Positions 1 to 30,137 of a DNA stretch of 37,323 nt are shown here, piece by piece. The DNA comes from Syntrophomonadaceae bacterium. GTDB taxonomy: Bacteria > Bacillota > Dethiobacteria > DTU022. The notes beneath the pieces are model-generated. The model saw nothing but the letters and a program-made list of their open reading frames with translations. It searched no databases and was not told the DNA's origin. The translations under genes and the position numbers were made by a program. The DNA is taken from the NCBI GenBank assembly GCA_007128625.1, contig SKXC01000009.1, positions 1-37,323 on the forward strand. Reading direction: 5' to 3'. Position 1 is the first letter of the stretch. Every line of letters starts with the position of its first letter.

Positions 1-3000
1 ATGAACTATAAGGCACCACGGGGAACACGCGATATATTACCTGATGAAGCAAAAAGATGGAGATATCTTGAATCAAACTTCCAAAGGTATTGCGATCTCT
101 ACGGTTTTGGCGAAATTCGCACCCCTGTATTTGAGCAAACGGAGCTTTTTGCCCGCAGCGTCGGAGAAGATAGCGATATAGTATCCAAGGAGATGTATTC
201 GTTTAAGGATCGCAGCGGGCGTGAACTGACCCTGCGTCCCGAACTGACCGCTGCCGTGGCCCGGGCTTATCTTGAACATAATCTCGGTGAAAAACCCCAG
301 CCAATTAAACTGTATTACAGTGGTCCCATGTTTCGTTACGATCGGCCCCAGGCCGGACGCTATCGTCAATTTCATCAGTTTGGCCTTGAAACCTTTGGTG
401 CAGACCATGCTGCGGCCGATGTTGAAATAATCACTTTTTGCTATAATTTCTTTAAATCACTGCAGATCGAAAGCTTATCAATAGAGTTAAACAGTGTTGG
501 TTGTCCGGTTTGCCGTCCCGGTTTCCGTGAAAAACTGTTGCCCTTTTTGGAAAAACTGGAACAAGGACTGTGTGAAGATTGCCAGAGGCGTTATAAGAGC
601 AATCCGATGCGGGTTCTCGACTGTAAAGAAGAAAGCTGCCAGGTTCAGGTTGCCGGTGCGCCTCGGATGATCGATCATTTATGCGCCGGTTGTGAAGAAA
701 GCTTTACCAGGCTTAAAGAACTGCTTACCAGCCTGCAGGTGCCTTATAACCTGAATACTAACCTTGTTCGCGGTCTGGACTATTATACCCGCACAGCATT
801 TGAAATTACGGCCGGTGCTTCGGGAGCACAGGCTTCATTATGCGGAGGGGGACGTTATGATCACCTGGTTGAACACATTGGCGGTCCTCATGTGCCCGGT
901 GTTGGAGTGGCCTTTGGGGTGGAAAGAATTATGCTGGCCATGGATTGGAGCAAGGCGCTGCCTGAAGTACAGCCTCCTGTTTTTATTGCTACTGCCGGCA
1001 GTGGATTGGAAGAAGAAGCCCTGGTTTTGGCTGATCATTTAAGAAAAAACCAGGTGGCTGCTGAAATAGATTTGCTGCAAAGAAGCCTTAAAGCCCAGAT
1101 GAAATACACCGGCCGGCAGGGTTTCAAGCTGGTTGTAATTATTGGCGAAGATGAAATCAAGAAGGACATTATAACCCTGCGCAACATGGAAAACGGTGAG
1201 CAAAAAGAAATGTCCCGAGAAGTTCTAATAAAAGAACTGGCCGGTTGTAACAGTGAATCAGTGAAATTAATTAATAGCGGCAGTCCGGAAGCTAAAGCAG
1301 AAGTATTGTTACCCAATGGAATAGATTTCACCCAAAAGACCCACTACTGTGGTGCAGTTACATCTGAACAGGTAAATCAAAACATAAAGCTTACCGGCTG
1401 GGTGGGCAAGCGCCGTGATCATGGAGGGTTGATTTTTATCGATTTACGTGATCGCAGCGGTTTAATACAGCTGGTTTTTGATCAGCGGCAGGGGATTGAA
1501 CTATTTAACCTGGCCGAGAGTTTGCGCAGTGAATATGTTGTGGCTGTTGAAGGAGAGGTCCTGAGGCGATCCGAAGAAACCATAAACCGTTCCCTGCCGA
1601 CCGGTGAGGTTGAAGTACAGGTCAGCAAAATGAAAATATTAAACACTTCTAAAACCCCTCCTTTCTATATTGAAGATAACATCAACGTTGATGAAAATTT
1701 GCGTTTACGCTACCGCTATCTTGATTTAAGACGCCCGGAAATGCTCAAGCGCCTCCAGGTGCGCCACCGGGCAGTAAAGCTGCTCCGTGATTACATGGAC
1801 CGTTTTGACTTTCTGGAGGTTGAAACTCCGATGCTGACCCGCAGCACGCCGGAAGGAGCCAGGGATTTTCTGGTGCCCAGCCGCATGCACAGCGGTTCAT
1901 TTTATGCCCTTCCCCAGTCTCCTCAGATTTTCAAACAGCTGCTTATGGTCAGCGGACTTGAGCGCTATTTTCAAATTGCCCGCTGTTTTCGCGATGAAGA
2001 TCTGAGAGCTGACCGGCAACCGGAATTTACCCAGGTTGATATTGAAACTTCATTTTTCTGCACAGATGATCTTTTTGCTCTTACCGAGGGTCTGATTGCT
2101 GAGCTTTGGAAAGAGTTCTTTGGTGTTGAAATTAATAAGCCTTTTATTAGAATCCCCTACAGGGATGTTATGAACCGGTTTGGGACAGACAAGCCTGATT
2201 TACGCTACGGCCTTGAACTGGTTGATCTTAATGATTTAGCTCAAAAAAGCGAATTTAAGGTATTTAAGACTGCGCTGGAAGGCGGCGGGACAGTAAAAGG
2301 CTTGCGGGTACCCGGTGGAAAAAGCCTGAGCCGCAAAGATCTGGATGATCTTACTTTGCGGGCCCGTCAGCTGGGAGCAAAGGGCCTGGCCTGGACATTT
2401 GTTGAAGAAGACGGATGGCGCTCACCGATTAGCAAATTTTTCGATCAGTCACTGATTGAAGCTATCAACAGCAGAATGGAAGCTGAATCCGGAGATGTTT
2501 TGCTTTTTGTGGCTGACAGCTGGGAGACAACCTGCCAGGTTCTGGGCAGTTTACGCAGTTATTTTGCCCCTCAGGGGCTTTCTATAAAACCTCATTTCCT
2601 CTGGGTGGTTGATTTTCCATTATTTTACTTTAACAGGGAAGAACAGCGTTATGATTCAAATCATCACCCCTTCACAGCACCCAGGGTTGAAGATATGAAT
2701 CTGCTGGAAAGCGATCCGCTTGCTGTGAGATCCCAGGCTTACGATCTGGTTCTTAACGGCGTGGAAATTGGTGGTGGAAGCATGCGTATTCACGACAGTG
2801 CCACCCAGGCCAGGATATTTCAGAAGCTCGGGTTATCGGAAGAAGAAAGCAATGAAAAATTTGGGTTTTTACTTGAAGCCCTTTCCTACGGAACTCCGCC
2901 GCATGGTGGGATTGCTCTTGGTCTCGATCGCCTGGTGGCCTTGTTAACCGGGGATGAATCGATCAGGCAGGTTATTCCCTTTCCCAAAACAGCAACGGCA

Positions 3001-3093
3001 AACTGCCTGATGACCGGTGCGCCTTCTGCTGTATCCACAAAGCAGTTGGATGAATTAAAAATCAAGTTGCAGACGGACAATGATAAAGAATAG
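1..3093 (+). CDS. hisS-aspS: Fused histidine--tRNA ligase / aspartate--tRNA ligase (HisS aa ~1-415, linker, AspS aa ~446-1030)
   Basis: HisRS motifs APRGTRD, TLRPELTA, FRYDRPQAGRYRQFHQ, LVRGLDYY, GGGRYD plus anticodon domain; then AspRS motifs THYCG, RRDHGGLIFIDLRD, RLRYRYLDLRR, STPEGARDFLVPSR, CFRDEDLRADRQPEFTQ, PPHGGIALGLDR in a single open frame. Confidence 0.95.
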   Translation: MNYKAPRGTRDILPDEAKRWRYLESNFQRYCDLYGFGEIRTPVFEQTELFARSVGEDSDIVSKEMYSFKDRSGRELTLRPELTAAVARAYLEHNLGEKPQPIKLYYSGPMFRYDRPQAGRYRQFHQFGLETFGADHAAADVEIITFCYNFFKSLQIESLSIELNSVGCPVCRPGFREKLLPFLEKLEQGLCEDCQRRYKSNPMRVLDCKEESCQVQVAGAPRMIDHLCAGCEESFTRLKELLTSLQVPYNLNTNLVRGLDYYTRTAFEITAGASGAQASLCGGGRYDHLVEHIGGPHVPGVGVAFGVERIMLAMDWSKALPEVQPPVFIATAGSGLEEEALVLADHLRKNQVAAEIDLLQRSLKAQMKYTGRQGFKLVVIIGEDEIKKDIITLRNMENGEQKEMSREVLIKELAGCNSESVKLINSGSPEAKAEVLLPNGIDFTQKTHYCGAVTSEQVNQNIKLTGWVGKRRDHGGLIFIDLRDRSGLIQLVFDQRQGIELFNLAESLRSEYVVAVEGEVLRRSEETINRSLPTGEVEVQVSKMKILNTSKTPPFYIEDNINVDENLRLRYRYLDLRRPEMLKRLQVRHRAVKLLRDYMDRFDFLEVETPMLTRSTPEGARDFLVPSRMHSGSFYALPQSPQIFKQLLMVSGLERYFQIARCFRDEDLRADRQPEFTQVDIETSFFCTDDLFALTEGLIAELWKEFFGVEINKPFIRIPYRDVMNRFGTDKPDLRYGLELVDLNDLAQKSEFKVFKTALEGGGTVKGLRVPGGKSLSRKDLDDLTLRARQLGAKGLAWTFVEEDGWRSPISKFFDQSLIEAINSRMEAESGDVLLFVADSWETTCQVLGSLRSYFAPQGLSIKPHFLWVVDFPLFYFNREEQRYDSNHHPFTAPRVEDMNLLESDPLAVRSQAYDLVLNGVEIGGGSMRIHDSATQARIFQKLGLSEEESNEKFGFLLEALSYGTPPHGGIALGLDRLVALLTGDESIRQVIPFPKTATANCLMTGAPSAVSTKQLDELKIKLQTDNDKE

Positions 3094-3153: not shown

Positions 3154-3186
3154 TTTTATGGAAATAGTAAGTCAATTATGGGCATG

Positions 3187-3360
3187 ACCCTGCTGTGTTC
3201 GTGACAGCCGATTAAGTTTTGAGCCAACATTTTATGAACGGGAGCCCGGGCTTCAGCTGCGGCGCAGCAGCCTTTGAAAAGAGGACCTGCAAAACAGCTG
3301 AGAGGGCACCCACCTTTTGGGGGAACAGTTCAAAACGTACGGTCCACGGCATGGCGGGGT
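3187..3360 (+). ncRNA. ssrS: 6S RNA
   Basis: ~175 nt; 5' end CCCTGCTGTGTTCGTG pairs with 3' CACGGCATGGCGGGG; internal GGGAGCCCG and GAGGGCACCCACC motifs typical of Firmicutes 6S; lies downstream of aspS as is usual; followed by a T-tract. Confidence 0.88.
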
Positions 3361-3379
3361 TTTTTTATGTTTTTTTGCA

Positions 3380-3388: not shown

Positions 3389-3438
3389 AAAGCTTGTTTG
3401 ACTGTTTATCAGGTTTATGTGGAGAGGAGGTGAAGGTA

Positions 3439-4761
3439 TTGACCGTTGAAAATATTCGTTTTTTGATAAGCCGGGAATTGAAAGCGGGAACTCATCCGGG
3501 AGATCTCCTTGAGCAGCTTGAAGATTTGGAAATGGATCAAAAAGTTGAGTTGATTCAGCAGCTATCCGATCAAGAAGCAGCTCTTTTATTTCAGGAAATG
3601 GAAGATTTTGAACAGGCTGAAATTATCAGGGGTCTTGACCGGGAACGGGCAATGACAATTCTGACCGATATGGCTTCAGATGATGCTGCTGATTTGATCG
3701 GTAAGCTTTCACCGGAAGAAACACAGGAAATGCTGCAGTTAATTGATGAAGAAGAGCCTGCAGACTTTGGAAATTTACTGAAATATCCGGAAGAAAGCGC
3801 CGGGGGGATCATGACTACCGAGTTTATCTCCCTTCCGGCGGATATTCCGGTTGAAGAGGCTATTGACCGCCTGCGGGAAATAGCTCCTGAAGCGGAGACG
3901 ATCTACTATGTATATGTAGTTGATCAGGATGGCCATTTGATCGGCGTGCTTTCACTCCGCGACCTGATTGCTTCCACAGACGGGACTATCCTAAAAACGA
4001 TCATGCGGCGCAATGTGATCAGCGTGAATGCCGGTCTCGACCAGGAAGAGGTGGCCCGTATTGTCTCAAAGTACGACTTGCTGGCCGTTCCGGTTGTTGA
4101 TGATCAAGAGCGTTTGCTGGGTATTATTACTGTTGATGATGTTATTGATGTCATGGAACAGGAGGCCACCGAGGATATTTACCGCCTGGCCGGAGCCGGT
4201 GAAGTGGTCGATATGGAGTTGACTGAAGCGCCCGTAAGTAAAGTAGTCCGCCTTCGTCTTCCCTGGTTAATGATCAGTATGGTCGGCGGCTTCATCTCCG
4301 GAAGCGTTATTGGTGGTTATGAAAGCACTCTTGAAGCGATCGTAATTCTTGCCGTTTTTATTCCTGTTATCATGGATATGGGCGGTAATGTAGGCACTCA
4401 ATCATCAACCATTTTTGTTCGCGGCATTGCGACCGGAGAAATTGACGAGGCTGAAGTATGGCCTTATTTTTTCCGTGAAATTCGTATCGGTATAACCCTT
4501 GGCTTGATTTGCGGGGCGATAATATCGATAGCTGCCTATTTTTGGCAGGGCAATCCTTACCTTGGCCTGGTAGTAGGCATTTCTATGCTGGCCACAATTA
4601 GTGTGGCGGCTTTAATCGGCACACTTGTCCCCCTGCTCTGCAGTAAAATTAATATTGATCCGGCAATAACTGCCGGGCCTTTTGTAACCACGATAAAAGA
4701 TGTTACCGGCTTGATGATATACTTTGTTATTGCCACTGCCTTTCTCCAGTACCTCCGCTGA
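3439..4761 (+). CDS. mgtE: Magnesium transporter MgtE
   Basis: MgtE N-domain, YPEESAGGIMTTEF, tandem CBS domains, RLPWL, MGGNVGTQS, DPAITAGPFVTTIKD; start placed at TTG 3439 behind GGAGGTG (ORF track start 3394). Confidence 0.95.
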   Translation: MTVENIRFLISRELKAGTHPGDLLEQLEDLEMDQKVELIQQLSDQEAALLFQEMEDFEQAEIIRGLDRERAMTILTDMASDDAADLIGKLSPEETQEMLQLIDEEEPADFGNLLKYPEESAGGIMTTEFISLPADIPVEEAIDRLREIAPEAETIYYVYVVDQDGHLIGVLSLRDLIASTDGTILKTIMRRNVISVNAGLDQEEVARIVSKYDLLAVPVVDDQERLLGIITVDDVIDVMEQEATEDIYRLAGAGEVVDMELTEAPVSKVVRLRLPWLMISMVGGFISGSVIGGYESTLEAIVILAVFIPVIMDMGGNVGTQSSTIFVRGIATGEIDEAEVWPYFFREIRIGITLGLICGAIISIAAYFWQGNPYLGLVVGISMLATISVAALIGTLVPLLCSKINIDPAITAGPFVTTIKDVTGLMIYFVIATAFLQYLR

Positions 4762-4977
4762 TTATTCAGATGCAGGCCAGTTCTCCTTAACTCTAAAGTA
4801 AGACTGATTAATTATTTTCCCCTTCGAATCCTAAACTACCCTGGATCACATATTTGTTCTTGCATACATATGATCGCCAACCCTGTTTGTTATATAAAAA
4901 AGTCATTTTGCAGGTAATGACCGCAGGGCAGCAAAGTGTGGGCAATTAGATGACATATTTTATTATATATGTAATAT

Positions 4978-5013
4978 AAAGGAGGGAGAATATAGGCAAT
5001 TTCCTCTTTTTTT
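4978..5013 (+). terminator. Possible intrinsic terminator upstream of the dcw cluster
   Basis: GGAGGGAG pairs with TTTCCTCT (including G-U pairs), followed by a T-run. Confidence 0.4.
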
Positions 5014-5054
5014 AATTTTTTTTTAAATTTTAAGCGTTTTTATGTAAAAAGGGG

Positions 5055-5097
5055 TTGCAAAATAGAGTAAAGTGGTGTAATGTGGTGAAAAGTGGTA
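5055..5097 (+). promoter_or_regulatory. mraZ/dcw promoter with three MraZ-binding repeats
   Basis: TTGCAA -35 (5055-5060); GTGGTG/GTGGTG/GTGGTA at 5072, 5082 and 5092 with 10-bp period, matching known Firmicutes MraZ boxes. Confidence 0.8.
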
Positions 5098-5124
5098 GCA
5101 GTATCCCTAAATGGAGGCGAACAG

Positions 5125-5556
5125 GTGTTTACAGGAGAATTCCATCATGCGCTTGACGGAAAGGGAAGGGTGATAGTTCCCTCCCGCCTGCGGGAAGGTT
5201 TGGGTGATAGCTTTGTGATTACCCGCGGACTCGATCATTGTCTTTTTGCCTATCCCAACTCTGAATGGGTTCGCCTGGAACAAAAAATGAAACAGCTGCC
5301 CATTACCAGGAAGGATTCAAGAGCTTTTATGCGCCTGTTTTTTTCCGGAGCGATAGAAGTAGAAGCTGATAAACAGGGCCGGGTGCTTATACCCCAGAAT
5401 TTACGAGAGTATGCAGGGATTGATAAAGATATTATCTTTATTGGTGTTTCAAGCCGGGTGGAAATATGGAGCAAGTTGGCCTGGAAAGAGTATTTCGGTG
5501 AAGCAGATAGCAATTATGAAGAGCTTGCTGAAAAATTGGGTGACTTTGATTTGTAA
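5125..5556 (+). CDS. mraZ: Transcriptional repressor MraZ
   Basis: [14 protein letters not shown] and DKQGRVLIP duplicated motifs; GTG start 5125 after GGAGG. Confidence 0.97.
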
Positions 5557-5570
5557 AAGTGGTGTTTTAA

Positions 5571-6518
5571 TTGGTCGAACTGCATCTGCCGGTGATGGAA
5601 AAAGAAGTCCTTGCTTTTTTGAACTGCCGGGATGATGGGGTATATGTCGATGCAACAGTAGGAGATGGCGGACATGCAGAAGCAATTTGCCGCAGCCTGG
5701 TTGCCGGAGGAAAGCTGATCGGGATAGATTGGGATGAAGCTGCCCTGGAAAGAGCGGAAAAAAGGCTTTCAGCTTTTTCCGGGAAGGTAAACCTTGTTCA
5801 TGCCGACTATACTCGCCTGGCAGAAATTCTTAAAGATATGGGCTTGCCCCTGGTCGATGGCATCTTGATTGATTTAGGAGCATCAACCCTGCAGTTGATG
5901 GACAGGGAAAGAGGTTTTTCTTTACACCGGGGCGGTGATCTGGATATGCGGATGGATCGAAGACAGTCTCTTACAGCCAGTGATATTGTTAACAATTACA
6001 CTGCTGACCAGTTAGCTGATATTTTCTTTCGCTACGGTGAAGAACGCTTCTCTAGACGTATAGCGGCCAGGATAGCGCTGGAAAAAGAGAAAAGTGGGCC
6101 GATTAATAATAGTTTCCGTTTGGCTGAAATAGTCAAGGAGGCAATTCCGGCCCGTTATCGAAGACGGGGTGGCCATCCTTCCCGGAAAGTATTCCAGGCT
6201 TTGCGTCTGGCGGTAAACAGGGAGCTTGATAATATTTGTAAAGTTTTGCCCCGGGCGGTAAACTGCCTTGTCCCGGGGGGAAGGTTGGTTGTAATTGCTT
6301 ATCATTCTTTAGAGGACCGAATTGTAAAAAATTTCATGCGAGAATGGGCCAGAAAGTGTAATTGCCCGCCGGGGAAACCCTGTGTCTGTAAAGGAGAAGC
6401 TGAAATAACCATACTAAGTGCTAAAGCAGTCAGACCCGGTGAAGATGAAGTGAATAGGAATCCCCGTTCGCGTAGTGCACGTTTGAGAGCAGCAGAGCGC
6501 CTGAAGAGTACAGGTTAG
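5571..6518 (+). CDS. rsmH: 16S rRNA m4C1402 methyltransferase RsmH
   Basis: HLPVM, YVDATVGDGGHA, LDMRMD, YGEERFSRRIA, FQALRLAVN, YHSLEDRIVK, NPRSRSARLR. Confidence 0.97.
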   Translation: MVELHLPVMEKEVLAFLNCRDDGVYVDATVGDGGHAEAICRSLVAGGKLIGIDWDEAALERAEKRLSAFSGKVNLVHADYTRLAEILKDMGLPLVDGILIDLGASTLQLMDRERGFSLHRGGDLDMRMDRRQSLTASDIVNNYTADQLADIFFRYGEERFSRRIAARIALEKEKSGPINNSFRLAEIVKEAIPARYRRRGGHPSRKVFQALRLAVNRELDNICKVLPRAVNCLVPGGRLVVIAYHSLEDRIVKNFMREWARKCNCPPGKPCVCKGEAEITILSAKAVRPGEDEVNRNPRSRSARLRAAERLKSTG

Positions 6519-6534
6519 AAAGTAGGTGAGTAAG

Positions 6535-6906
6535 ATGCAGCAGGCAAGAATACTATCTACAGCTAAACGACCGATTCCGTCGGTTCAACCGGGTAAAAAC
6601 CCGGTTGCAGGGCCGCAACCCGGGCATCGTCTAAAAAAAGCAAAACTAGTTATGATTTTATTGACCTGTTTCATGCTCAGCCTGGTCGTGGTAGCCCAGT
6701 ATTCATCCTTAGTTGTTCTCAACTACAGGCTTAGCAGTGCCCGTAATGAACTGTTGGCGGCTAACGAAATTACCCGCACCCTGGAACTCGAAGCTGCCAA
6801 ACTCGGTTCGATTGGTCGGGTTGAGCAAATTGCCAGGGAAGAACTGGGCATGGTTGAACCTGACACTGAACAGCTGGTTGTTATAAAAACTTCCCGGGGA
6901 GAATAG
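6535..6906 (+). CDS. ftsL: Cell division protein FtsL
   Basis: Single TM helix, coiled coil, RVEQIAREELGM; position between rsmH and the PBP gene; ATG 6535 after AGGTGA. Confidence 0.85.
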   Translation: MQQARILSTAKRPIPSVQPGKNPVAGPQPGHRLKKAKLVMILLTCFMLSLVVVAQYSSLVVLNYRLSSARNELLAANEITRTLELEAAKLGSIGRVEQIAREELGMVEPDTEQLVVIKTSRGE

Positions 6907-6928
6907 TGCGGCAGGGAGAGTGAACTAA

Positions 6929-8662
6929 ATGGCTGGCTTTACCGTAAACCGGGCAACTGTAAGGCGAAGATTATTGGCAGCCTTTATTATTACAGCGCTG
7001 CTTACTCTCCTTTTGGTTGGCCGGCTGGCCTTGATTCAAATTGTATGGGCTGATCAGCTTTACGAACAAGCCTGGAAACAATGGAATCGCAATGTTCCGA
7101 TTTATACAGCCCGGGGTTCAATTTATGATTGTCATGGCCGTTTGCTGGCAGGTACCAGCTCGGTCGATACAATTGCTGCCGTCCCTCCGCATGTAAAAGA
7201 TCCCCAGACAGCAGCCGAAGCCCTGGCACCGGTTCTGGATATGGAATCAGAGAGGATCAAGGAGCTAATTACCATGGAGCGCAGCTCAATATTTATCAAG
7301 CGAAAAGTAGATTCGGAAACAGCGGAGGCAGTGCGTGAGATGAACATACCGGGTATAATATTTTTCACTGAAGAGAAAAGAGATTATCCGGGTGATAATA
7401 TTGCACCCCAGCTGCTGGGTTTTGTCGGAATGGATGAGGGACTGGCGGGCCTGGAATATTATTATGAGGATTATTTAAAAGGTGGAGAAAGCAGGTTGTA
7501 TTATCCTGCTGATGGGCGAGGGCGGCAGCTTCCCCACTATTTTAACCGTTTTGTTCCACCCAGGCAGAACTATGATTTATTTTTAAGCATTGATGAAACA
7601 ATTCAATACATTGTGCAGAAAGAATTAGCAGTCATTATGGAAGAAACAGCCCCAAAACAGGCCATGGCTTTGGTGGTAGATCCACAAACAGGAGCAGTAC
7701 TGGCGGCAGCGGGCAAACCGGATTATAAGCCGAAAGCTTTTGAAAGATATGATCCCGAAAGCTGGACCCTGGCTCCGTTCAACTCTTCATTTGAACCCGG
7801 CTCGACTTTTAAGCTGGTTACCCTGGCCGCAGCTCTCGAAGAAAACTTGATTGATCTGAATGAAACACATCATTGCACTGGCAATGTTGTTGTTAATGAC
7901 CACCGGATTAATTGCTGGACCACTGGTCGGGGGGGGCATGGAGAAATTAGTTTTTCTGATGCCCTGGCAGGCTCATGTAACCCTACATTTATTGAGATGG
8001 GCAGGCGGCTGGGCGAAGAAAAATTATTACATTATATAGAAGGGTTTGGATTTGGCCGGGCCACCGGTATAGATTATCCCGGGGAAAGCAGAGGTATGAT
8101 TTTTAATCCCGGGCAAATGGGACCGCTGGAACTGGCAACAACCACTTTTGGCCAGGGTATAACCGTTACCCCGATCCAGCAGGTGATGGCGGTAACCGCC
8201 ATGATCAATGGTGGATACCTGCTTAAGCCTTACCTGGTAAAAGAGATTCGCGATCAAAACGGCGATGTTTATTTTAAGCATGAGCCGGAAATTATCAGGC
8301 AGGTAATTTCAGAAAATACATCCGTTCAGTTGATGGAACTGATGGAAACTGTGATTACGGAAGGCACCGCAAAAGCTGCTGCCAGCGATATTTATCGCCT
8401 GGCAGGGAAAACGGGTATGGCGCAAATACTTGGTTCGGACGGAGAGTATAAGTCCGGTCAATATATACATTCCCTGGTTGGGTTTGCCCCGGTTGAAAAT
8501 CCGCGGGTGGTTCTTTACGTAGCAGTGGATAGCATCACAAGAGGGCCGCAGTCTGGTTCGTATACGAGCGCGCCCCTTTTTAAAAGGATTATGGAGGACA
8601 TATTAAATTATTTACAGGTTACTCCATCAAGTAGATTAGAGTCTGAACTGGAAACCGGTTAG
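6929..8662 (+). CDS. Class B penicillin-binding protein (SpoVD/FtsI-like), no PASTA domain
   Basis: N-terminal TM, RGSIYD, KRDYP, STFK (SxxK), SCN (SxN), KTG motifs. Confidence 0.93.
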   Translation: MAGFTVNRATVRRRLLAAFIITALLTLLLVGRLALIQIVWADQLYEQAWKQWNRNVPIYTARGSIYDCHGRLLAGTSSVDTIAAVPPHVKDPQTAAEALAPVLDMESERIKELITMERSSIFIKRKVDSETAEAVREMNIPGIIFFTEEKRDYPGDNIAPQLLGFVGMDEGLAGLEYYYEDYLKGGESRLYYPADGRGRQLPHYFNRFVPPRQNYDLFLSIDETIQYIVQKELAVIMEETAPKQAMALVVDPQTGAVLAAAGKPDYKPKAFERYDPESWTLAPFNSSFEPGSTFKLVTLAAALEENLIDLNETHHCTGNVVVNDHRINCWTTGRGGHGEISFSDALAGSCNPTFIEMGRRLGEEKLLHYIEGFGFGRATGIDYPGESRGMIFNPGQMGPLELATTTFGQGITVTPIQQVMAVTAMINGGYLLKPYLVKEIRDQNGDVYFKHEPEIIRQVISENTSVQLMELMETVITEGTAKAAASDIYRLAGKTGMAQILGSDGEYKSGQYIHSLVGFAPVENPRVVLYVAVDSITRGPQSGSYTSAPLFKRIMEDILNYLQVTPSSRLESELETG

Positions 8663-8677
8663 AGGGAGCAGAAGCTC

Positions 8678-10069
8678 ATGATGCTTAAAGGAAATGAAAT
8701 AATCGAAGCCTGTGGAGGTACTTTGCTGCAGGGTAATCCTGAACAGTTGATCTCAGGTTTTGTCATTGATTCGCGGCAGGTTAAGGCCGGTGAATTATTC
8801 ATTCCTCTTAAAGGTGAGCATACAGATGGGCATCTTTATATTAAAAAAGCCTGTGAAATGGGTGCATCTGGAGCTTTTCATGAGTTGGGTAAAACGCTTG
8901 ATCCGGCCATCCCTCCCGATTTTCTGCTGATCGGGGTTGAAGATTCCCTGGGTGCGCTGCAGCAGCTTGCCGCCTTTCACAGGAGACGCTTTGACCTTCA
9001 TGTAATCGGGATTACCGGGAGCACTGGAAAAACAACCACTAAAGATTTTACTGCCGGGGTTTTAACGGCAAAATATAATGTTTTAAAAACAACAGGCAAC
9101 CTGAACAATGAAATTGGTCTTCCTTTGACTTTATTGGAGCTGGAAGACAAGCACGAGGTTGCAGTGCTGGAGATGGGTATGAGCGCCCGTGGTGAAATTA
9201 AAAACCTGTGCGAGATAGCCGATCCTACGATCGGTATTATTACTAATATCGGTGAAGCTCATATGGAATTGCTTGGTTCGATAGAAGCAATTACCGAAGC
9301 AAAAGGAGAACTCTTAGATTACCTCGGCTCAGGCGGGGTAGCCATATTGAATGGTGAAGATCCCCGCCTCCTTGATTTAGGAAAACGCTTCCCGGGAAAA
9401 GCCTACTACTATGGCTTTAACCAGGGCGATATAAAAGGCTTACAGTTGTCTCAAAAGGGAGAGAAAAGCTTTTTCCGGGGGCGTTTTCCTGATAATACCG
9501 AGGGGTGGTTTGAAACACCTCTTCCGGGACGGGAGTCGGTCAGTAATGCCCTGGCGGCTCTTACCGTTGGCTATATTCTTGAATTGAGTTTGCCGGAGAT
9601 GAAAAAGGGGCTTGAAAAAAGCCAGTCTACGGCCGGACGATTCCAGATTTTACATAATCAACAGGGTATGACCATTATTGATGACACCTACAATGCCAAT
9701 CCCAGTTCTGTTAGAGCAGCCCTGAGGTTGCTGGTGGAGCTGGGAGGTCAAAAAACAGTTGCTGTGCTTGCTGATATGCTTGAACTGGGAGCTATTGCCC
9801 GGGAAGCACATTTATCAGCGGGGCGTTTTGCAGCAGAATGTGGCCTGGGCACTCTGATCACTGTAGGTGAACTGGCCCGTATAATGGCGAAAGGGGCTGA
9901 AAATGCCGGCATGAGAGTATATCCATGTGTGGATCATGACCAGGCATTACAGGTTTTAAAAAAACTGCCCCTTGATAAAAACTGGTCTATTCTGGTTAAG
10001 GGCTCAAGAGGGATGAAAATGGAAATAATCGTTCATGCCCTTACCGGTGAGAAAGGAGCGGGTGGATAA
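8678..10069 (+). CDS. murF: UDP-MurNAc-tripeptide--D-Ala-D-Ala ligase
   Basis: DSRQV, GITGSTGKTTTKD, NLNNEIGLP, EMGMS, DDTYNANP, DMLELG, LVKGSRG. Confidence 0.96.
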   Translation: MMLKGNEIIEACGGTLLQGNPEQLISGFVIDSRQVKAGELFIPLKGEHTDGHLYIKKACEMGASGAFHELGKTLDPAIPPDFLLIGVEDSLGALQQLAAFHRRRFDLHVIGITGSTGKTTTKDFTAGVLTAKYNVLKTTGNLNNEIGLPLTLLELEDKHEVAVLEMGMSARGEIKNLCEIADPTIGIITNIGEAHMELLGSIEAITEAKGELLDYLGSGGVAILNGEDPRLLDLGKRFPGKAYYYGFNQGDIKGLQLSQKGEKSFFRGRFPDNTEGWFETPLPGRESVSNALAALTVGYILELSLPEMKKGLEKSQSTAGRFQILHNQQGMTIIDDTYNANPSSVRAALRLLVELGGQKTVAVLADMLELGAIAREAHLSAGRFAAECGLGTLITVGELARIMAKGAENAGMRVYPCVDHDQALQVLKKLPLDKNWSILVKGSRGMKMEIIVHALTGEKGAGG

Positions 10070-11028
10070 TGGTTGTAAAGATGTTAATGGCAATAATAAT
10101 TGCCTTCCTGACAACCGCTATCCTTTCTTCAGTTTTCATTAAACTGATGCTCCGTTTACAATACGGCCAACAAATTCGGGAAATCGGGCCAGAGCGACAC
10201 CAGGTCAAAGCCGGAACCCCAACCATGGGAGGGATCATTTTTATTCTGACCGCTCTGCTGATCAGCCTGCTGCTGGGTGGTTTTTCTCCCCTGATGTTTG
10301 CTGTAATCCTGGTTACTCTCGGTTGTGGGTTAATCGGTTTTTTTGATGATTACGGGAAGATTTCCCATGGCCGGTCACTGGGATTGAAAGCAAGGTCAAA
10401 GCTGGCTTTAGAAATAGTTCTTACAGCCCTGCTGGTTATACTATTACAGAGTTTTAGTTTATATTCAACTGAAGTATTACTGCCTTTTTTGAACTATACA
10501 ATTGATATCGGGTTCTTATACCCGTTTTTCATTTTCCTGATTATTTCAGCAGCCAGCAACAGTGTTAACTTAACCGATGGTGTGGACGGACTGGCCGCAG
10601 GAACTTCAGTTATAGCACTGGTTGCTTTTATGATTATTGCCTTTCAATCGGGATTAACTGAAATTGTTCTCTTTTGTGCAGCCCTGGCCGGGTCCTGCCT
10701 CGGTTTTTTAATCTATAACTACCACCCGGCCCGTTTGTTCATGGGTGATGTTGGTTCGCTGGCATTAGGTGGAGCTTTAGCTGTTGTAGCCGTTTTGAGC
10801 AAGGCAGAACTATTTCTTATAATCATCGGGGGAGTTTTTGTGCTGGAATCTTTATCGGTCATAATCCAGGTGATCAGTTTTCAATTAACCGGGCGGCGGA
10901 TTTTCCTGATGAGCCCGCTGCATCATCATTTTGAAATGAAAGGTTGGTCTGAAAAAAAAGTTACCACCTCGTTTTTGGGCGCAGCCCTGCTCTTTGCTGT
11001 AATAGGGGTGATAGCATACAATTACTAA
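10069..11028 (+). CDS. mraY: Phospho-MurNAc-pentapeptide transferase
   Basis: KAGTPTMGG, DDY, NLTDGVDGLA, FMGDVGS, PLHHHFE. Confidence 0.97.
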   Translation: MVVKMLMAIIIAFLTTAILSSVFIKLMLRLQYGQQIREIGPERHQVKAGTPTMGGIIFILTALLISLLLGGFSPLMFAVILVTLGCGLIGFFDDYGKISHGRSLGLKARSKLALEIVLTALLVILLQSFSLYSTEVLLPFLNYTIDIGFLYPFFIFLIISAASNSVNLTDGVDGLAAGTSVIALVAFMIIAFQSGLTEIVLFCAALAGSCLGFLIYNYHPARLFMGDVGSLALGGALAVVAVLSKAELFLIIIGGVFVLESLSVIIQVISFQLTGRRIFLMSPLHHHFEMKGWSEKKVTTSFLGAALLFAVIGVIAYNY

Positions 11029-11088
11029 CTTTCACAAATTGTATGCGATCAGTATAAATGATCAGGTTGAAGTCTGGAGTGACTTGTT

Positions 11089-12516
11089 TTGATCGATTTG
11101 ATTAAAGGCAAAAACATCCTGGTGGTTGGCATGGCTCGCAGCGGTATGGCTGCGGTGGCCCTGTTATCCAGGATTGGTGCTGCCAAAATTACTATTGCCG
11201 ATCAAAAACAGCCACAAGAACTCACTGCTGAATTAGCCGGGTTGGATCGTTATTCTTCTTTAGAGGTGAAAACCGGTGGAACTCCTCCTGACCTGGTAAC
11301 CCCCGACCTGTCTGTTATCGTAAAGAGTCCCGGTGTTCCGCCTGACCTGGACCTCTTTATACGGGCCGGATCACTTGATATACCGGTGTTATCAGAAGTT
11401 GAACTGGCCTATGCTTTTATAAAAGCCCCGATGATCGGTGTAACCGGGACTAACGGGAAGACGACCACCACTGCTTTGATTACTGCGATGCTGAAAGAAG
11501 CCCGGTTTGATCCGGTTGTTTCGGCCGGGAATATCGGGAATCCGTTATGCGGGGTTGTGGACAGCATAAACTCCCAGGGTTTCATTGTAGCAGAACTAAG
11601 CAGTTTTCAGCTGGAAAATATAAACTGTCTTCGTCCGCTTGTAGCAGTATTTCTTAACTTTGCCGAAGATCATCTGGACTATCACGGGACCCTTGAACGA
11701 TATTTTGCGGCAAAAGCCCGGATCTTTGAAAATCAACTTGCCGGTGATTATGTTGTGCTTAATGCCGGAGATAGAAAAGTTTCATCGCTGGCAAAAAATT
11801 GCATGGGTCAGATTCTTTGGTTCGACAGGGCACCGGTGAGGGCAGGAGTCGGTTTAAAAGAAGATTATATAACCCTTTTTAATCCGGGATGCAAACCCTG
11901 TGAAATTTGTCCCGCTGCCGAAATGGCTTTGCCGGGAGAACATAATTTGGAAAATGCACTTGCTGCATCTGCGGCAGCCTGGGCCGCCGGAGCTGATCCG
12001 CAGGCAATCGGTAATGTCCTGCGCAGCTTCAAAGCGATAGAACATCGCCTCGAATATGTTGCCACCCTGGCCGGTGTTGATTTTATCAATGATTCGAAGG
12101 GAACCAATCCCGGTGCATCAATAAAAGCATTAAAGTCTTTTCCCGGACGTAAGAAGATCCTGATTGCCGGGGGAAAAGACAGGGGCAGCAATTTTGAAGA
12201 ACTGGCAAATATGATCCGGCATGAAGTCAGCTACCTGTTCTTGTTTGGGGAATCAAAAGATAAGCTGGCCCTTTCTGTTGAAAAAACAGGGTTTTCTAAT
12301 TACCGGCAGGTAGAAGGCCTGGAAGAAGCGGTTCGCGGTGCCCGTAGTAAAGCCCGGGCCGGGGATATAATCCTTCTTTCACCGGCCTGTGCCAGCTGGG
12401 ATATGTTTACTGATTATGAAGCCCGGGGTAACCTTTTTAAAAAAATTGTTATTGGTTTAAAAGCGGAAGAGGAATTGAAGCAAAGAGTGGAGGGGGCAAA
12501 TAGCAATGACCGGTAA
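11089..12516 (+). CDS. murD: UDP-MurNAc-L-Ala--D-glutamate ligase
   Basis: GMARSG, VTGTNGKTTT, ELSSFQL, DHLDYH, NDSKGTN, LSPACASWD. Confidence 0.97.
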   Translation: MIDLIKGKNILVVGMARSGMAAVALLSRIGAAKITIADQKQPQELTAELAGLDRYSSLEVKTGGTPPDLVTPDLSVIVKSPGVPPDLDLFIRAGSLDIPVLSEVELAYAFIKAPMIGVTGTNGKTTTTALITAMLKEARFDPVVSAGNIGNPLCGVVDSINSQGFIVAELSSFQLENINCLRPLVAVFLNFAEDHLDYHGTLERYFAAKARIFENQLAGDYVVLNAGDRKVSSLAKNCMGQILWFDRAPVRAGVGLKEDYITLFNPGCKPCEICPAAEMALPGEHNLENALAASAAAWAAGADPQAIGNVLRSFKAIEHRLEYVATLAGVDFINDSKGTNPGASIKALKSFPGRKKILIAGGKDRGSNFEELANMIRHEVSYLFLFGESKDKLALSVEKTGFSNYRQVEGLEEAVRGARSKARAGDIILLSPACASWDMFTDYEARGNLFKKIVIGLKAEEELKQRVEGANSNDR

Positions 12517-13639
12517 AAAAACAGCCCACACCTATGATCGCACCCTGCTGTTTGTTACAATTCTGCTGTTGGGTATCGGACTGCTCATGGTTTTTAGCGC
12601 CAGTTTTGTCGCTGCTGCAGAAAACAGGGGCGACCCTTATTTCTACCTTAAACGACAGGCGTTATGGGTGTCTATTGGCTTGGTCGGTATGTTTATACTA
12701 TCACGTATCCATTATAAAAACCTGAAACGATTTTCGATAATCATTCTAATGCTTAATTTTGTCCTGCTGGGATTAGTATTTAGCAGCCTGGGTTCTGATT
12801 TGAGCACTGAAGCCAGGCGCTGGCTGGCAATCGGGCCCGTTGTTGTCCAGCCTTCTGAATTTAGCAAGCTGGCCTTAATAATCTTTACGGCAGCTTATAT
12901 GAGCAGCCGCAGGCTAAACCTTTATAATTTTTGGAGCGGCAGCCTGGTTCCCCTTGCTTTAATCAGCTGTGCTTTTTTCATGATTCAGTTTCAACCTGAT
13001 ATGGGTACGGCCCTGGTGGCCCTGATTGGCAGTGCGCTGGTGATTATTTATGCCGGCATGCCTTTATACCAGGTAGCCGGTCTGGCCCTGTTTTTTCTGC
13101 CGCCGATTGCCTATTTTATTGTAAAAGAAGAATATCGTATGCAGCGGTTGTTTAGCTATTTCGATCCCTGGGCAGATCCAACCGATTCAGGTTACCAGGT
13201 AATCCAATCACTTTATGCCCTGGGACCCGGCCACATCTTTGGAGCCGGTCTGGGCAGCGGCAGGCAAAAGCTGTTTTACCTGCCTGAACCGCAAAATGAT
13301 TTCATCTTTGCCGTTATCGGTGAAGAACTGGGCTTCATCGGAGCTGTAGCGGTGCTGATGCTTTATATGGTCCTGGTCTGGCGCGGTTTCCAGATTGCCC
13401 TCAGGGCGCCTGAACTGTTTGGCAGTTTACTGGCAGCGGGGATTACTTTTATGATCGCCGTCCAGATGTTGATTAATGTGGCCGTAGTTACCGGTTCACT
13501 GCCGGTAACCGGGATTAACCTGCCCCTGATCAGCTCAGGTGGCAGCTCAGTATTTTTTACCCTGGTCGGGATTGGCATCTTGCTTAATATTTCGAAATAC
13601 AGACGGGATACAACAAGCCACAGGGAGGCAGTAAAGTGA
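12506..13639 (+). CDS. ftsW: SEDS peptidoglycan polymerase FtsW/SpoVE
   Basis: MVFSAS, QPSEFSK, QPDMGT, GYQVIQS, LPEPQNDFIF, LPLISSGGSS. Confidence 0.94.
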   Translation: MTGKKTAHTYDRTLLFVTILLLGIGLLMVFSASFVAAAENRGDPYFYLKRQALWVSIGLVGMFILSRIHYKNLKRFSIIILMLNFVLLGLVFSSLGSDLSTEARRWLAIGPVVVQPSEFSKLALIIFTAAYMSSRRLNLYNFWSGSLVPLALISCAFFMIQFQPDMGTALVALIGSALVIIYAGMPLYQVAGLALFFLPPIAYFIVKEEYRMQRLFSYFDPWADPTDSGYQVIQSLYALGPGHIFGAGLGSGRQKLFYLPEPQNDFIFAVIGEELGFIGAVAVLMLYMVLVWRGFQIALRAPELFGSLLAAGITFMIAVQMLINVAVVTGSLPVTGINLPLISSGGSSVFFTLVGIGILLNISKYRRDTTSHREAVK

Positions 13640-14727
13640 TGAAAATTATGATCGGGGGAGGAGGAACCGGCGGACACATCTATCCTGCCCTGGCTTTAGC
13701 CCGGCATGCCCTGTCTGAAGACGGCACAAACGATATTCTTTTTGTCGGCAGTGCAGCCGGTCTTGAAAGTAAAATTGTTCCTGCTTCCGGTTTCACCCTG
13801 GTCACTATACCGGCCCGTGGATTTCAACGCAGTTTTAAACAGCTTTTTTTAACATTAAAAGATTTCATAAACGGTTTGAGGAGCTCATTTAAAGTGCTTA
13901 AAGACTATCAACCTGATGTGGTGCTTGGTACAGGCGGATATGTAGCTGCTCCCCTGGTGTTATCGGCATTGCTAAAAAAAATACCGGTAGTTCTTCATGA
14001 GCAAAATGCTCTGCCGGGATTGGTCAACCGCTGGTTTGCCCCTTTTGTCAAGAAGGTTTGCCTCTCCTTTGGGGAGACCGGTAAAAAGTTGCCGCCTTTC
14101 AGCAAAGCAGTTACTACCGGCAACCCCAGGGCCAGTGAAGTCAGTGAGATCGGCAGACTGGAAGGCTGCCGGTACTTTAGCCTTGATCCCGGCGAAAAAA
14201 ATATTTTGATTTACGGGGGAAGCCGGGGTGCGCTGAAATTAAACCAGGTAATCATTGCTTACCTGAAGGAAAACTTTCTTCCCGAAGGAGTAAATCTAAT
14301 CTATGTGACCGGGGATATATACTACCAGCAGGTTTTTACAGAGCTCGAACAGCAGCTGAACCGGGTTAAACTTTTTTCCTATCTTACAGAAATGCCCGAA
14401 GCAATGGCTGCTGCCGATCTGGCTGTAACCCGCAGTGGAGCAACAACCCTTGCCGAGCTAACCGCACTGGGTGTTCCGGCTTTGCTGATTCCTTCTCCCA
14501 ACGTGGTCAATAATCACCAGTACTACAATGCCCGGATTTTGTCTGATGCCGGTGCGGCAGTTTTAATTGAAGAGAAAGATTTTGATCACTTCCGGCTGCA
14601 AACAGAAATAAACAGGCTGATTACAGAACCGGCACTGCTTGAACAAATGAGCCGGCGCAGTAAGCAAATGGGCATGACTGATGCTGCTGAAAAATTATAT
14701 CGATGTCTGCAGGAGGTAGCTTTATGA
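13636..14727 (+). CDS. murG: Lipid II GlcNAc transferase MurG
   Basis: GGGTGGHIYP, GTGGYV, HEQN, GGSRGA, RSGATT. Confidence 0.97.
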   Translation: MMKIMIGGGGTGGHIYPALALARHALSEDGTNDILFVGSAAGLESKIVPASGFTLVTIPARGFQRSFKQLFLTLKDFINGLRSSFKVLKDYQPDVVLGTGGYVAAPLVLSALLKKIPVVLHEQNALPGLVNRWFAPFVKKVCLSFGETGKKLPPFSKAVTTGNPRASEVSEIGRLEGCRYFSLDPGEKNILIYGGSRGALKLNQVIIAYLKENFLPEGVNLIYVTGDIYYQQVFTELEQQLNRVKLFSYLTEMPEAMAAADLAVTRSGATTLAELTALGVPALLIPSPNVVNNHQYYNARILSDAGAAVLIEEKDFDHFRLQTEINRLITEPALLEQMSRRSKQMGMTDAAEKLYRCLQEVAL

Positions 14728-15620
14728 AAGTCGAGCAGGAGCTGGGCCCGAAATTAAAATATGGCATCAAAAAAAATGAGCCAATGGCTGATCATACCTC
14801 CTGGCTTGTCGGCGGGCCGGCAGATTATTTTCTTTACCCGACCGACTTAAATGAGCTTTTAGAAATAGTCACTTATAGTGAAAAATACCAGCTGCCGCTT
14901 TTTATCCTCGGCAATGGGACAAACCTGCTGGTTTTGGATGGCGGGATAAGGGGGTTGGTGGTCAATATCGGTGCTCCATTCAGCCATATAGAGCAAGATT
15001 GCAGCCGTTTAAAAGCAGGCGCCGGCCTGTCAATGGCCGCCCTGGCAAAAAGCGCGGCCTCCGCCGGTTTAAGCGGCCTGGAGTTTGCTATCGGTATTCC
15101 CGGTTCTCTGGGAGGAGCCCTGGTTATGAATGCCGGCGCATTTGGAGGTTATATCGGGGAAAAAGTGCAGTCGGTAAAACTGGTTGACTTTAACAGTCGG
15201 GTTGTGAATATGTCTCGTGCTGAAATATCTTTCGGTTATAGAACCAGCAGCCTGGCCGGAAAAGGAATTATTACTGAAGTGATTTTAGAACTTGAAGAAG
15301 GCAGCCCGGATCAGATCTATAACACCATGGAGCATTGTTCAGCCGAACGTCGTCGCCGTCATCCTGTAAAACCCAGTGCGGGTAGTGTGTTTCGGAATTT
15401 GCCCGATCAGCCTGCCGGAAGGATTATCGAAAATGCCGGAGCCAAGGGTATGAGGATCGGCGGGGCAGAAGTTTCTGAACATCATGCTAACTTTATCATC
15501 AATACCGGTAATGCCACTGCAGCCGATATTTTAAATCTAATTAAAGCGGTGCAGGATAAGGTTAAGAGTAAATATGGCATAGAGCTTCAACCAGAGATTA
15601 GAATTATTGGTGAGGAGTAA
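14724..15620 (+). CDS. murB: UDP-N-acetylenolpyruvoylglucosamine reductase
   Basis: GGPADY, LGNGTNLL, GIPGSLGGALVMNAGA, SAGSVFRN, HANFIIN; ATG 14724 overlaps the murG TGA and follows AGGAGG. Confidence 0.96.
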   Translation: MKVEQELGPKLKYGIKKNEPMADHTSWLVGGPADYFLYPTDLNELLEIVTYSEKYQLPLFILGNGTNLLVLDGGIRGLVVNIGAPFSHIEQDCSRLKAGAGLSMAALAKSAASAGLSGLEFAIGIPGSLGGALVMNAGAFGGYIGEKVQSVKLVDFNSRVVNMSRAEISFGYRTSSLAGKGIITEVILELEEGSPDQIYNTMEHCSAERRRRHPVKPSAGSVFRNLPDQPAGRIIENAGAKGMRIGGAEVSEHHANFIINTGNATAADILNLIKAVQDKVKSKYGIELQPEIRIIGEE

Positions 15621-15626
15621 TAACCA

Positions 15627-16421: not shown

Positions 16422-16426
16422 AATAA

Positions 16427-16453
16427 AAAGGAAATAGTTGAAATGTGTTGAAT
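16427..16453 (+). promoter_or_regulatory. Sigma-H-type promoter upstream of ftsA
   Basis: AAAGGAAAT, 11 bp, GTTGAAT matches RNAGGAWWW-N11/12-RNNGAAT; B. subtilis ftsAZ has a sigma-H promoter. Confidence 0.7.
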
Positions 16454-30131: not shown

Positions 30132-30137
30132 CTGTTT

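What the first reader, a model, noticed from the sequence alone, without database searches (positions are those of the whole stretch)
1..3093. Single-polypeptide HisRS-AspRS fusion
Seen: complete HisRS and complete AspRS motif sets in one stop-free 1030-aa frame, joined by a ~30-aa linker (about 1240-1335) with no convincing Shine-Dalgarno ahead of the AspRS part. Known: hisS and aspS are adjacent but normally separate genes in Firmicutes; fusions of two aminoacyl-tRNA synthetases are best known from eukaryotic GluProRS; both enzymes here are class II homodimers. Inference: if real, this is a bifunctional bacterial synthetase with two independent dimer interfaces, which could force 1:1 stoichiometry and give a closed dimer or higher-order chains. 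The linker is partly AT-rich (AAATTAATTAAT) and may be former intergenic DNA captured by loss of a stop codon.
Basis: partly seen in the sequence, partly recalled or inferred. Interest (0 to 1): 0.85.

Follow-up and report, generated by a model that had tools for sequence, protein, structure and literature searches.

The report
Natural bacterial HisRS-AspRS fusion protein
In one family of uncultured soda-lake bacteria, the genes for the enzymes that load histidine and aspartate onto their tRNAs have merged into a single gene, a kind of double-synthetase fusion best known from animals.

Summary
Window 1-3093 (+) is one 1030-aa ORF holding a complete HisRS (res 4-413) and a complete bacterial-type AspRS (res 445-1025), both over their NCBIfam cut-offs.

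It is not an assembly error. Contigs from three runs (2012, 2019, 2022) cover 900-1700 with no indel.

The same open frame spans the junction in 23 of 25 genomes of the window's family, and the other 2 are uninformative. None of 16 genomes in sister families has it.

Across 35 unique junctions the linker has 0 stops in 1051 codons, against 33 and 82 in the other frames. It has 11 different lengths, all multiples of 3.

Sister families have translationally coupled hisS and aspS. That makes loss of the stop a likely origin.

The linker is a variable polar tether of 12-28 aa plus a conserved [A/P]-E-V-x-L-P extension, which a confident model packs onto AspRS.

Among 1.84 billion cluster representatives, only one in the top 150 is fused. 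No paper found names this fusion.

It is the genome's only HisRS and AspRS. That it is made as one chain, and its oligomeric state, are untested.

The parts
1..3093 (+). Fused hisS::aspS ORF, 1030 aa plus stop
   Evidence: ORF; both domain sets; same open frame in relatives
1..1239 (+). HisRS module (res 1-413): class II core with a Cys-rich insertion domain, plus the HGTP anticodon-binding domain
   Evidence: PF13393 at 8-310, PF03129 at 327-413; TIGR00442, 518 bits against a cut-off of 287; matches solved HisRS chains 1qe0, 1kmm and 1adj over query 2-411
1240..1296 (+). Variable polar tether (res 414-432), which holds all the length variation between relatives
   Evidence: 12-28 aa in 34 junctions, 87% polar or disorder-promoting residues; pLDDT 44 for res 413-422 and 59 for res 423-432; 0 stops in frame
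1297..1335 (+). Conserved clade-specific N-terminal extension of AspRS (res 433-445), carrying A-E-V-L-L-P at res 433-438
   Evidence: motif in 34 of 35 junctions; Pro 8 residues before K446 in 32 of those 34; synonymous codon variation within the motif; pLDDT 85 for res 433-442, with a beta-bridge
1336..3090 (+). Bacterial-type AspRS module (res 446-1030): OB-fold anticodon-binding domain, class IIb core and GAD insertion
   Evidence: model mean pLDDT 93.9; TM 0.91-0.95, normalised to target length, for the top nine hits, including 1c0a, 1efw and 6sjc

Best explanation
This is a genuine, lineage-wide gene fusion. hisS and aspS are neighbouring, translationally coupled genes in related Bacillota. 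In the ancestor of one family of uncultured bacteria they merged into one ORF, most simply by loss of the hisS stop codon and then of the aspS start codon.

The product is inferred to be one polypeptide of 1030 aa. It carries a complete class IIa HisRS and a complete class IIb AspRS, and supplies both His-tRNA(His) and Asp-tRNA(Asp).

The two modules are joined by a short, fast-evolving, polar tether that is probably disordered. A conserved [A/P]-E-V-x-L-P extension follows it and is predicted to pack against the AspRS body.

Both parent enzymes are obligate homodimers (established knowledge). The fusion must therefore form either a closed (HisRS-AspRS)2 particle or open chains, with fixed 1:1 stoichiometry.

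Shown: the ORF, its conservation, frame maintenance, single-copy status and DNA-level reproducibility. Inferred: translation as one chain, both activities, and the quaternary structure.
For: (1) ORF and domains are complete.

(2) In the window's own family f1, 23 of 25 genomes (G000 included) have an open frame spanning the junction with no stop. The other two are uninformative: G004 has no copy in a 71%-complete genome, and G023 has only a fragment covering query 648-1028. None of 16 genomes of sister families f2-f5 has it.

(3) Of 80 loci fetched from genome contigs, 23 are fused, 54 split and 3 untestable. All 23 fused loci are MAGs titled Syntrophomonadaceae, Bacillota or Firmicutes, at 70% identity or more to the query.

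(4) 42 junctions give 35 unique DNA sequences with 11 distinct lengths (156-204 nt anchor to anchor), all multiples of 3. Stops in the linker: 0 of 1051 codons in frame, against 33 of 1016 and 82 of 1016 in the other two frames. The numbers of sequences with at least one stop are 0, 23 and 34 of 35.

(5) There is no conserved internal start. 10 of 35 junctions have no ATG/GTG/TTG in the last 30 codons. Only 10 of 35 have a candidate start with a 4-nt or longer SD-like match, and these lie at scattered positions.

(6) Logan contigs from runs X1 (2012), X3 (2019) and X5 (2022), at word depths 56.8, 14.8 and 16.4, each cover 900-1700 with 0 gaps. The one difference, T>C at 1422, is a synonymous His codon. 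A 262-nt contig from a metatranscriptome run covers 1232-1493 with no difference.

(7) Only one hisS match in the genome is over the cut-off. There is no second AspRS; the other class IIb hits are an AsnRS over its cut-off and a weak hit at about 30% identity.

(8) Catalytic regions of both halves are invariant across 22 fused proteins. Pooled dN/dS is 0.13 (HisRS flank) and 0.08 (AspRS flank) against 0.53 in the linker, from 3 independent pairs.

(9) Sister families show the precursor state. The aspS SD lies inside the hisS 3' end. The stop abuts an in-frame TTG start in L022, and TAATG overlaps occur in L027, L028 and L031.

(10) Trees: 33 fused rows form one clade (support 100). All fused rows as a single clade is not rejected (AU p = 0.371).
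Against: There is no protein-level evidence: no proteomics, western blot or activity data.

The RNA contig across the linker would also be expected from an ordinary operon, and could be DNA carry-over.

Proteolytic separation after translation cannot be excluded.

The closest relative (L003, 83-84% identical) lacks the Leu-Pro of the motif, so the motif is not indispensable.

A split relative (L072) sits in an unresolved trichotomy with the fused clade and the divergent fused G015 copy. One reversal or two independent fusions therefore remain possible.

The full-length model was poor (mean pLDDT 52.6), so nothing is known about how the two modules sit relative to each other.

The genome is 97% complete, so a stand-alone copy in the missing part cannot be strictly excluded.
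Confidence: 0.85

Rival explanations
1. The ORF is fused, but the cell still ends up with separate enzymes. AspRS would be produced by internal translation initiation within the linker, or the full-length chain would be cut in the exposed tether. On this view the fusion is a neutral quirk of gene structure.
For: The tether is polar, poorly conserved and low confidence in the model, so it would be accessible to proteases. 10 of 35 junctions have some in-frame start codon with a weak SD-like match. Linker dN/dS of 0.53 shows relaxed constraint.
Against: No start codon or SD is conserved in position. 10 of 35 junctions have no candidate start at all, and the window's own two candidates have no SD-like match. 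The ancestral Met of the sister families' 'MRLKRTHYCG' start is gone. The frame is kept through at least 11 length classes with 0 stops in 1051 codons. Internal initiation would not require that. A new conserved peptide motif evolved upstream of the old AspRS start.
Confidence: 0.1
2. The fusion is an assembly, binning or sequencing artefact, that is, a lost stop or frameshift error in this MAG.
For: The window comes from a fragmented MAG and starts at a contig end. The linker contains an AT-rich run.
Against: Independent contigs from three runs of different years show no indel and no stop. 14 runs hold 0.89 or more of the sampled words of the junction stretch. 35 distinct junction sequences from different assemblies are all open.
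Confidence: 0.01
3. One half is a degenerate or moonlighting paralogue, for example a HisZ-like regulator or an inactive AspRS-like domain, so the protein is not truly bifunctional.
For: HisRS-like domains are known to be reused as HisZ (established knowledge). HisZ models give sub-threshold hits (TIGR00443 at 185 bits against a cut-off of 272).
Against: hisS and aspS equivalog models both score far over their cut-offs and match end to end. The genome has no other HisRS or AspRS. Both halves are under strong purifying selection.
Confidence: 0.02

Closest known systems
Metazoan glutamyl-prolyl-tRNA synthetase (GluProRS/EPRS)
   Same: Two complete aminoacyl-tRNA synthetases on one polypeptide, joined by a non-catalytic linker and created by gene fusion. 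This is described in passages of PMC4394549, PMC11580382 and PMC7373986.
   Different: EPRS joins a class I enzyme (GluRS) to a class II enzyme (ProRS) through WHEP repeats, in eukaryotes, and sits in the multisynthetase complex. Here two class II homodimeric enzymes are joined by a short tether, in bacteria. Pfam reported no WHEP family.
Ordinary hisS-aspS operon of Bacillota
   Same: Same gene order. The neighbourhood in a close relative is also the same: relA/spoT C-terminus, then dtd, then hisS-aspS, then 6S RNA. The enzyme families are the same.
   Different: In 54 of 77 testable loci the two are separate ORFs with a stop and a Met start for AspRS. Here the stop and the start are gone and about 32 residues link the enzymes.
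Bifunctional AspRS/GatC (NCBIfam NF009460, PRK12820), and other synthetases fused to non-synthetase parts
   Same: A bacterial AspRS carried on a longer polypeptide with a second translation-related function.
   Different: In PRK12820 the partner is an amidotransferase subunit at the C-terminus, not a second synthetase. That model scores 626.7 bits here against a cut-off of 1379.

Membership tests
Histidyl-tRNA synthetase (class IIa; NCBIfam TIGR00442 hisS) | Full-length match to the equivalog model above its curated cut-off | tested here: met
   518.3 bits against 286.75; residues 4-405 on profile 1-405/406
Histidyl-tRNA synthetase (class IIa; NCBIfam TIGR00442 hisS) | Class II HisRS catalytic core followed by a C-terminal HGTP anticodon-binding domain | tested here: met
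   PF13393 at 8-310 and PF03129 at 327-413. Aligns to solved HisRS chains 1qe0, 1kmm and 1adj over query 2-411.
Histidyl-tRNA synthetase (class IIa; NCBIfam TIGR00442 hisS) | Histidylation of tRNA(His) and homodimer formation | not testable with these tools
   Needs biochemistry. Indirect support: it is the only hisS match over cut-off in the genome.
Bacterial-type aspartyl-tRNA synthetase (class IIb; NCBIfam NF001750 / TIGR00459) | Full-length match to the equivalog model above its curated cut-off | tested here: met
   840.1 bits against 443, and 763.8 against 373.85; residues 445-1025 on profile 4-588/590
Bacterial-type aspartyl-tRNA synthetase (class IIb; NCBIfam NF001750 / TIGR00459) | N-terminal OB-fold anticodon-binding domain, class IIb core and bacterial GAD insertion, with the fold of solved bacterial AspRS | tested here: met
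   PF01336 at 463-547, PF00152 at 564-997, PF02938 at 755-848. Model pLDDT 93.9. TM 0.91-0.95, normalised to target length, for the top nine hits, including 1c0a, 1efw and 6sjc.
Bacterial-type aspartyl-tRNA synthetase (class IIb; NCBIfam NF001750 / TIGR00459) | Discriminating or non-discriminating specificity | not tested
   An AsnRS is present in the genome (TIGR00457 at 613.8 bits, over cut-off), so a non-discriminating AspRS is not required. Specificity itself was not examined.
GluProRS-type double synthetase | Two complete synthetase catalytic cores on one polypeptide | tested here: met
GluProRS-type double synthetase | WHEP-repeat linker; class I GluRS plus class II ProRS | tested here: not met
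   Pfam reports no WHEP, GluRS or ProRS family. The linker is a short polar tether. The protein works like EPRS in being a two-synthetase chain, but it is not a member.
Bifunctional AspRS/GatC (NF009460) | Score above the curated cut-off, with a C-terminal GatC part | tested here: not met
   626.7 bits against 1379. The match covers profile 22-616 of 723 only.
HisZ (ATP phosphoribosyltransferase regulatory subunit) | Score above the curated cut-off of a HisZ model | tested here: not met
   TIGR00443 scores 185.4 against 271.65, and the other HisZ models are further below their cut-offs.

The most novel reading that the evidence does not exclude
The fusion is not just tolerated. It would build a covalent bacterial two-synthetase particle, a closed (HisRS-AspRS)2 or a higher-order chain held by two different class II dimer interfaces. 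In this reading the newly evolved [A/P]-E-V-x-L-P extension positions the modules, and charging of tRNA(His) and tRNA(Asp) is functionally coupled through stoichiometry, stability or tRNA handling. That would be a minimal prokaryotic counterpart of the eukaryotic multisynthetase complex.
Probability: 0.3. Interest if true: 0.75.

Novelty: new variant of a known kind. Interest (0 to 1): 0.6.

Why it matters
Polypeptides carrying two complete synthetases are textbook rarities. The reviews I read passages of cite essentially only metazoan GluProRS as a chain holding two different complete synthetases.

A natural, family-wide bacterial fusion of two obligate homodimers with different interfaces gives a simple system for three questions:
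- how such a chain assembles (closed dimer or polymer);
- whether fixed 1:1 expression or proximity of two synthetases has a functional pay-off;
- how a linker and a new docking motif evolve after a stop-codon loss.

The precursor state (coupled genes) and the product are both available in sister lineages, so the evolutionary path can be traced. The fusion could also serve as a marker for this uncultured soda-lake lineage.

Tried and rejected
Assembly error was rejected and by the comparative data.

Internal initiation as a conserved feature was looked for and not found.

I considered that the A-E-V codons might be a retained Shine-Dalgarno (GAGGT). I rejected this because most sequences use GAA for Glu and all three codons vary at synonymous sites, so the conservation is at the peptide level.

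T-box control of the fused gene: Rfam at gathering threshold found none in the 1.5 kb upstream in six fused relatives (L003, L009, L013, L015, L017, L018) or in the upstream flanks of two split ones (L023, L024). The window itself has no upstream sequence.

The full-length AlphaFold2 model on 22 close homologues (A1) was poor (mean pLDDT 52.6, pTM 0.35). I did not use it for any conclusion about module packing or for fold search.

Independent fusions elsewhere: the representative search listed the best 150 of 55,424 hits. Only P0037 spans both halves. The other 149 match only the AspRS half and are 452-773 aa long. Caveat: if fused proteins were clustered under shorter AspRS representatives they would be hidden.

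The Cys-rich HisRS insertion is not special to the fusion: it is in 34 of 34 fused rows and 34 of 65 split rows.

Complex prediction was not used. Two full chains (2060 residues) exceed its limit, and I make no claim that cut-down pieces bind.

Literature: searches (34 papers hold the terms, 20 listed; 3 papers, which only mention the hisS-aspS operon; 5 papers; 52 papers, 15 listed; 5 papers). For these I saw listings and the starts of abstracts only. I read passages by term search in PMC11580382, PMC4394549, PMC7373986, PMC13215547 and PMC3543383. None names a HisRS-AspRS fusion. Subscription journals and supplements were not searchable, so 'not in print' is limited to these searches.

The tree labels for L065, L090 and L100 were set to 'split' by default, although their junctions were untestable. 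Rows dropped from the trees were incomplete loci (first matched query residue above 20, or last below 1000) and identical sequences. The 32-row tree is a hand-picked subsample of the 99 rows.

The dN/dS figures rest on only 3 independent pairs.

An earlier count said 11 of 35 junctions lack a start codon. A recount of the output gives 10 of 35.
Full report
OBSERVATION. The window opens with a single ORF, 1..3093 on the + strand, 1030 aa, with no internal stop (sequence). Pfam finds a HisRS core (8-310) and HGTP anticodon-binding domain (327-413). These are followed by an OB-fold anticodon-binding domain (463-547), a class II D/K/N core (564-997) and the bacterial GAD insertion (755-848). The NCBIfam equivalog models for hisS (518 bits, cut-off 287, profile 1-405 of 406) and aspS (840 bits, cut-off 443, profile 4-588 of 590) both match end to end. 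The window is the first 37,323 bases of contig C26 of a 1.76-Mb, 175-contig assembly that is 97% complete.

IS IT REAL? Three lines of evidence say yes.

(a) Reproducibility. The 801-nt stretch 900-1700 is held at 0.89 or more of its sampled words by 14 runs labelled salt-lake, soda-lake or alkali-sediment metagenomes, from 2012, 2019 and 2022. Logan contigs of three of these runs (word depths 56.8, 14.8 and 16.4) cover it completely, with no gap and one synonymous difference at 1422. One of these runs may be the window's own source. A 262-nt contig from a metatranscriptome run covers 1232-1493, across the linker. That would also be seen for an operon, or from DNA carry-over.

(b) Recurrence. 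In a search of 40 relatives plus the window's own genome, an open frame without stops spans the junction in 23 of the 25 genomes of the window's own family, at 61-83% identity. The other two are uninformative (G004 has no copy; G023 has only a C-terminal fragment). In 16 genomes of four sister families it never does. There the two halves are separated by 1-2 in-frame stops (G028, G029, G031, G032, G039), lie in different frames, or lie apart. Of 80 loci fetched from genome contigs, 23 are fused, 54 split and 3 untestable. The fused ones are all MAGs titled Syntrophomonadaceae, Bacillota or Firmicutes. The split ones include Bacillus, Paenibacillus, Sporolactobacillus, Peptostreptococcus, Clostridioides and Desulfobacteraceae.

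(c) Frame maintenance. 42 fused junctions give 35 unique DNA sequences with 11 different lengths, all multiples of 3. The linker has 0 stops in 1051 in-frame codons, against 33 of 1016 and 82 of 1016 in the other frames. These sequences are related, so this is not a formal probability, but many independent indels have all preserved the frame.

ANATOMY OF THE JUNCTION. The linker has two parts.

The first is a tether of 12-28 residues. It holds all the length variation and is 87% Gly, Glu, Ala, Ser, Lys, Asp, Pro and similar residues.

The second is a fixed-length extension with [A/P]-E-V-x-L-P in 34 of 35 junctions. The Pro lies exactly 8 residues before the Lys of the AspRS 'K-T-H-Y-C-G' start in 32 of those 34. 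In the window this is A433-E-V-L-L-P438. The motif's codons vary at synonymous sites, so it is conserved as a peptide and not as an RNA signal. The closest relative, L003, lacks the Leu-Pro.

An AlphaFold2 model of residues 413-1030, built on 142 sequences (A2: 34 fused and 108 stand-alone AspRS), is confident (mean pLDDT 93.9, pTM 0.91). It matches solved bacterial AspRS with TM 0.91-0.95, normalised to target length, for the top nine hits. In this model residues 413-432 are low confidence (44-59). The block 433-442 has pLDDT 85 and includes a beta-bridge, so the motif is predicted to pack on the AspRS body. I could not see which surface it touches.

The full-length model was poor and says nothing about how the two modules sit together.

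No conserved internal start exists. 10 of 35 junctions have no ATG/GTG/TTG in the last 30 codons. SD-like matches are few and scattered. The window's own two candidates have none.

ORIGIN. In sister families the AspRS begins 'M-R-L-K-R-T-H-Y-C-G' or similar. The two genes are translationally coupled, with the aspS Shine-Dalgarno inside the 3' end of hisS. The hisS stop either abuts an in-frame TTG start (L022) or overlaps the start as TAATG (L027, L028, L031). Some f3 genomes have about 50-60 nt of in-frame spacer with one or two stops (L023, L025, L026). One substitution or a 1-nt indel at such a junction would fuse the genes.

The fused linkers are 13-29 codons longer than an L022-type junction would give, and similar in length to an L026-type junction. 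Whether spacer DNA was captured or the tether grew later is therefore open.

A FastTree tree of 99 complete loci puts 33 fused rows in one clade (support 100). That clade is nested among the split families f5 and f3. The divergent fused G015 copy (L032) and one split MAG (L072) join it in an unresolved trichotomy. On a 32-row IQ-TREE tree, holding all fused rows together costs 2.66 log-likelihood units (AU p = 0.371), so a single origin is not rejected. It is not proven either.

FUNCTION. The fusion is the only hisS match over cut-off in the genome and the only AspRS. An AsnRS is present. Across 22 fused proteins the class II motifs of both halves are invariant. Pooled dN/dS from 3 independent pairs is 0.13 and 0.08 in the two enzyme flanks and 0.53 in the linker (small sample). 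Both halves must therefore work.

The best reading is a bifunctional polypeptide. Because HisRS and AspRS are homodimers (established knowledge), it must form a closed dimer of fusions or open chains. This was not testable here.

COMPARISON AND NOVELTY. No solved chain holds both halves: 22 chains matched, each covering one half only. NCBIfam shows no model covering both halves (the best 25 of 44 families are listed).

Among 1.84 billion 50%-identity cluster representatives, the top 150 hits contain one fused protein (P0037, 1029 aa, 62% identical) and 149 that match the AspRS half only. A junction-centred search of 5.8 billion proteins found 24 proteins spanning the junction, P0001-P0024. Of these, 22 are full length (1027-1041 aa) and two are shorter (P0022 at 781 aa, P0024 at 721 aa). 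Where a source names them, it is only as 'aspartyl-tRNA synthetase'. The fusion therefore looks confined to one lineage.

Five literature searches and passages from five papers gave no mention of it (22, 49, 63, 65, 76). The closest known analogue is metazoan GluProRS. It works alike in being two synthetases on one chain, but this protein is not a member of that family: it has no WHEP linker, pairs different enzyme classes, and comes from a different domain of life.

I rate it a new variant of a known kind. The sequences are already in public databases but, within what I could search, undescribed.

LIMITS. There are no protein data. Supplements were closed.

Noticed in passing
window 3184-3364 (+): A 6S/SsrS RNA gene (Rfam RF00013, 91.3 bits) lies about 90 nt downstream of the fused gene. 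The same placement is seen after the fused gene in L003, L009, L013, L015, L017 and L018, and after aspS in split relatives L023 and L024.
   Followed up: partly
window 30137-30369 (+) and 30441-33200 (+): A T-box leader (RF00230, 115.3 bits) sits directly upstream of a 919-aa class I synthetase ORF (tRNA-synt_1 plus Anticodon_1). In contrast, no T-box was found upstream of the fused hisS::aspS in six relatives.
   Followed up: partly
window 502-693 (res 168-231 of the fusion): The HisRS insertion domain carries eight Cys that are invariant across 22 fused proteins (C168, C171, C191, C194, C208, C213, C228, C231), suggesting metal binding. The three-CxxC pattern is in 34 of 34 fused rows and 34 of 65 split rows, so it is not specific to the fusion.
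   Followed up: partly
G015:C146:193-3237 and G015:C258:5-2482: One family member has two fused copies on different contigs, at 63% and 61% identity to the query. Its C146 copy (L032) has a shorter, different junction. This could be a paralogue or a mixed bin.
   Followed up: no
L072 (CAYQQK010000006.1): A 62%-identical MAG titled Syntrophomonadaceae has split hisS and aspS in different frames, with a normal SD and Met start. It groups with the fused clade in an unresolved trichotomy. It is either a pre-fusion lineage or a fission.
   Followed up: partly
L003 1-1500 (closest relative, upstream of the fused gene): Upstream synteny is the relA/spoT C-terminal part, then a 155-aa dtd-like ORF, then a GGAGAGGAG Shine-Dalgarno and the ATG of the fusion. 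The relA/spoT and dtd names are my reading of the translations, not a family search. The window itself starts exactly at that ATG because the contig ends there.
   Followed up: partly
window 3394-18856 (+): An MgtE transporter (3394-4761) is followed by a cell-division and cell-wall cluster: MraZ, RsmH (MraW family), a PBP transpeptidase, and on to FtsZ at 17768-18856. Further on are an aconitase-family protein, an HMGL-like synthase, the anaerobic ribonucleotide reductase NrdD, and an NFACT_N protein on the minus strand at 35607-37313. All ordinary.
   Followed up: no
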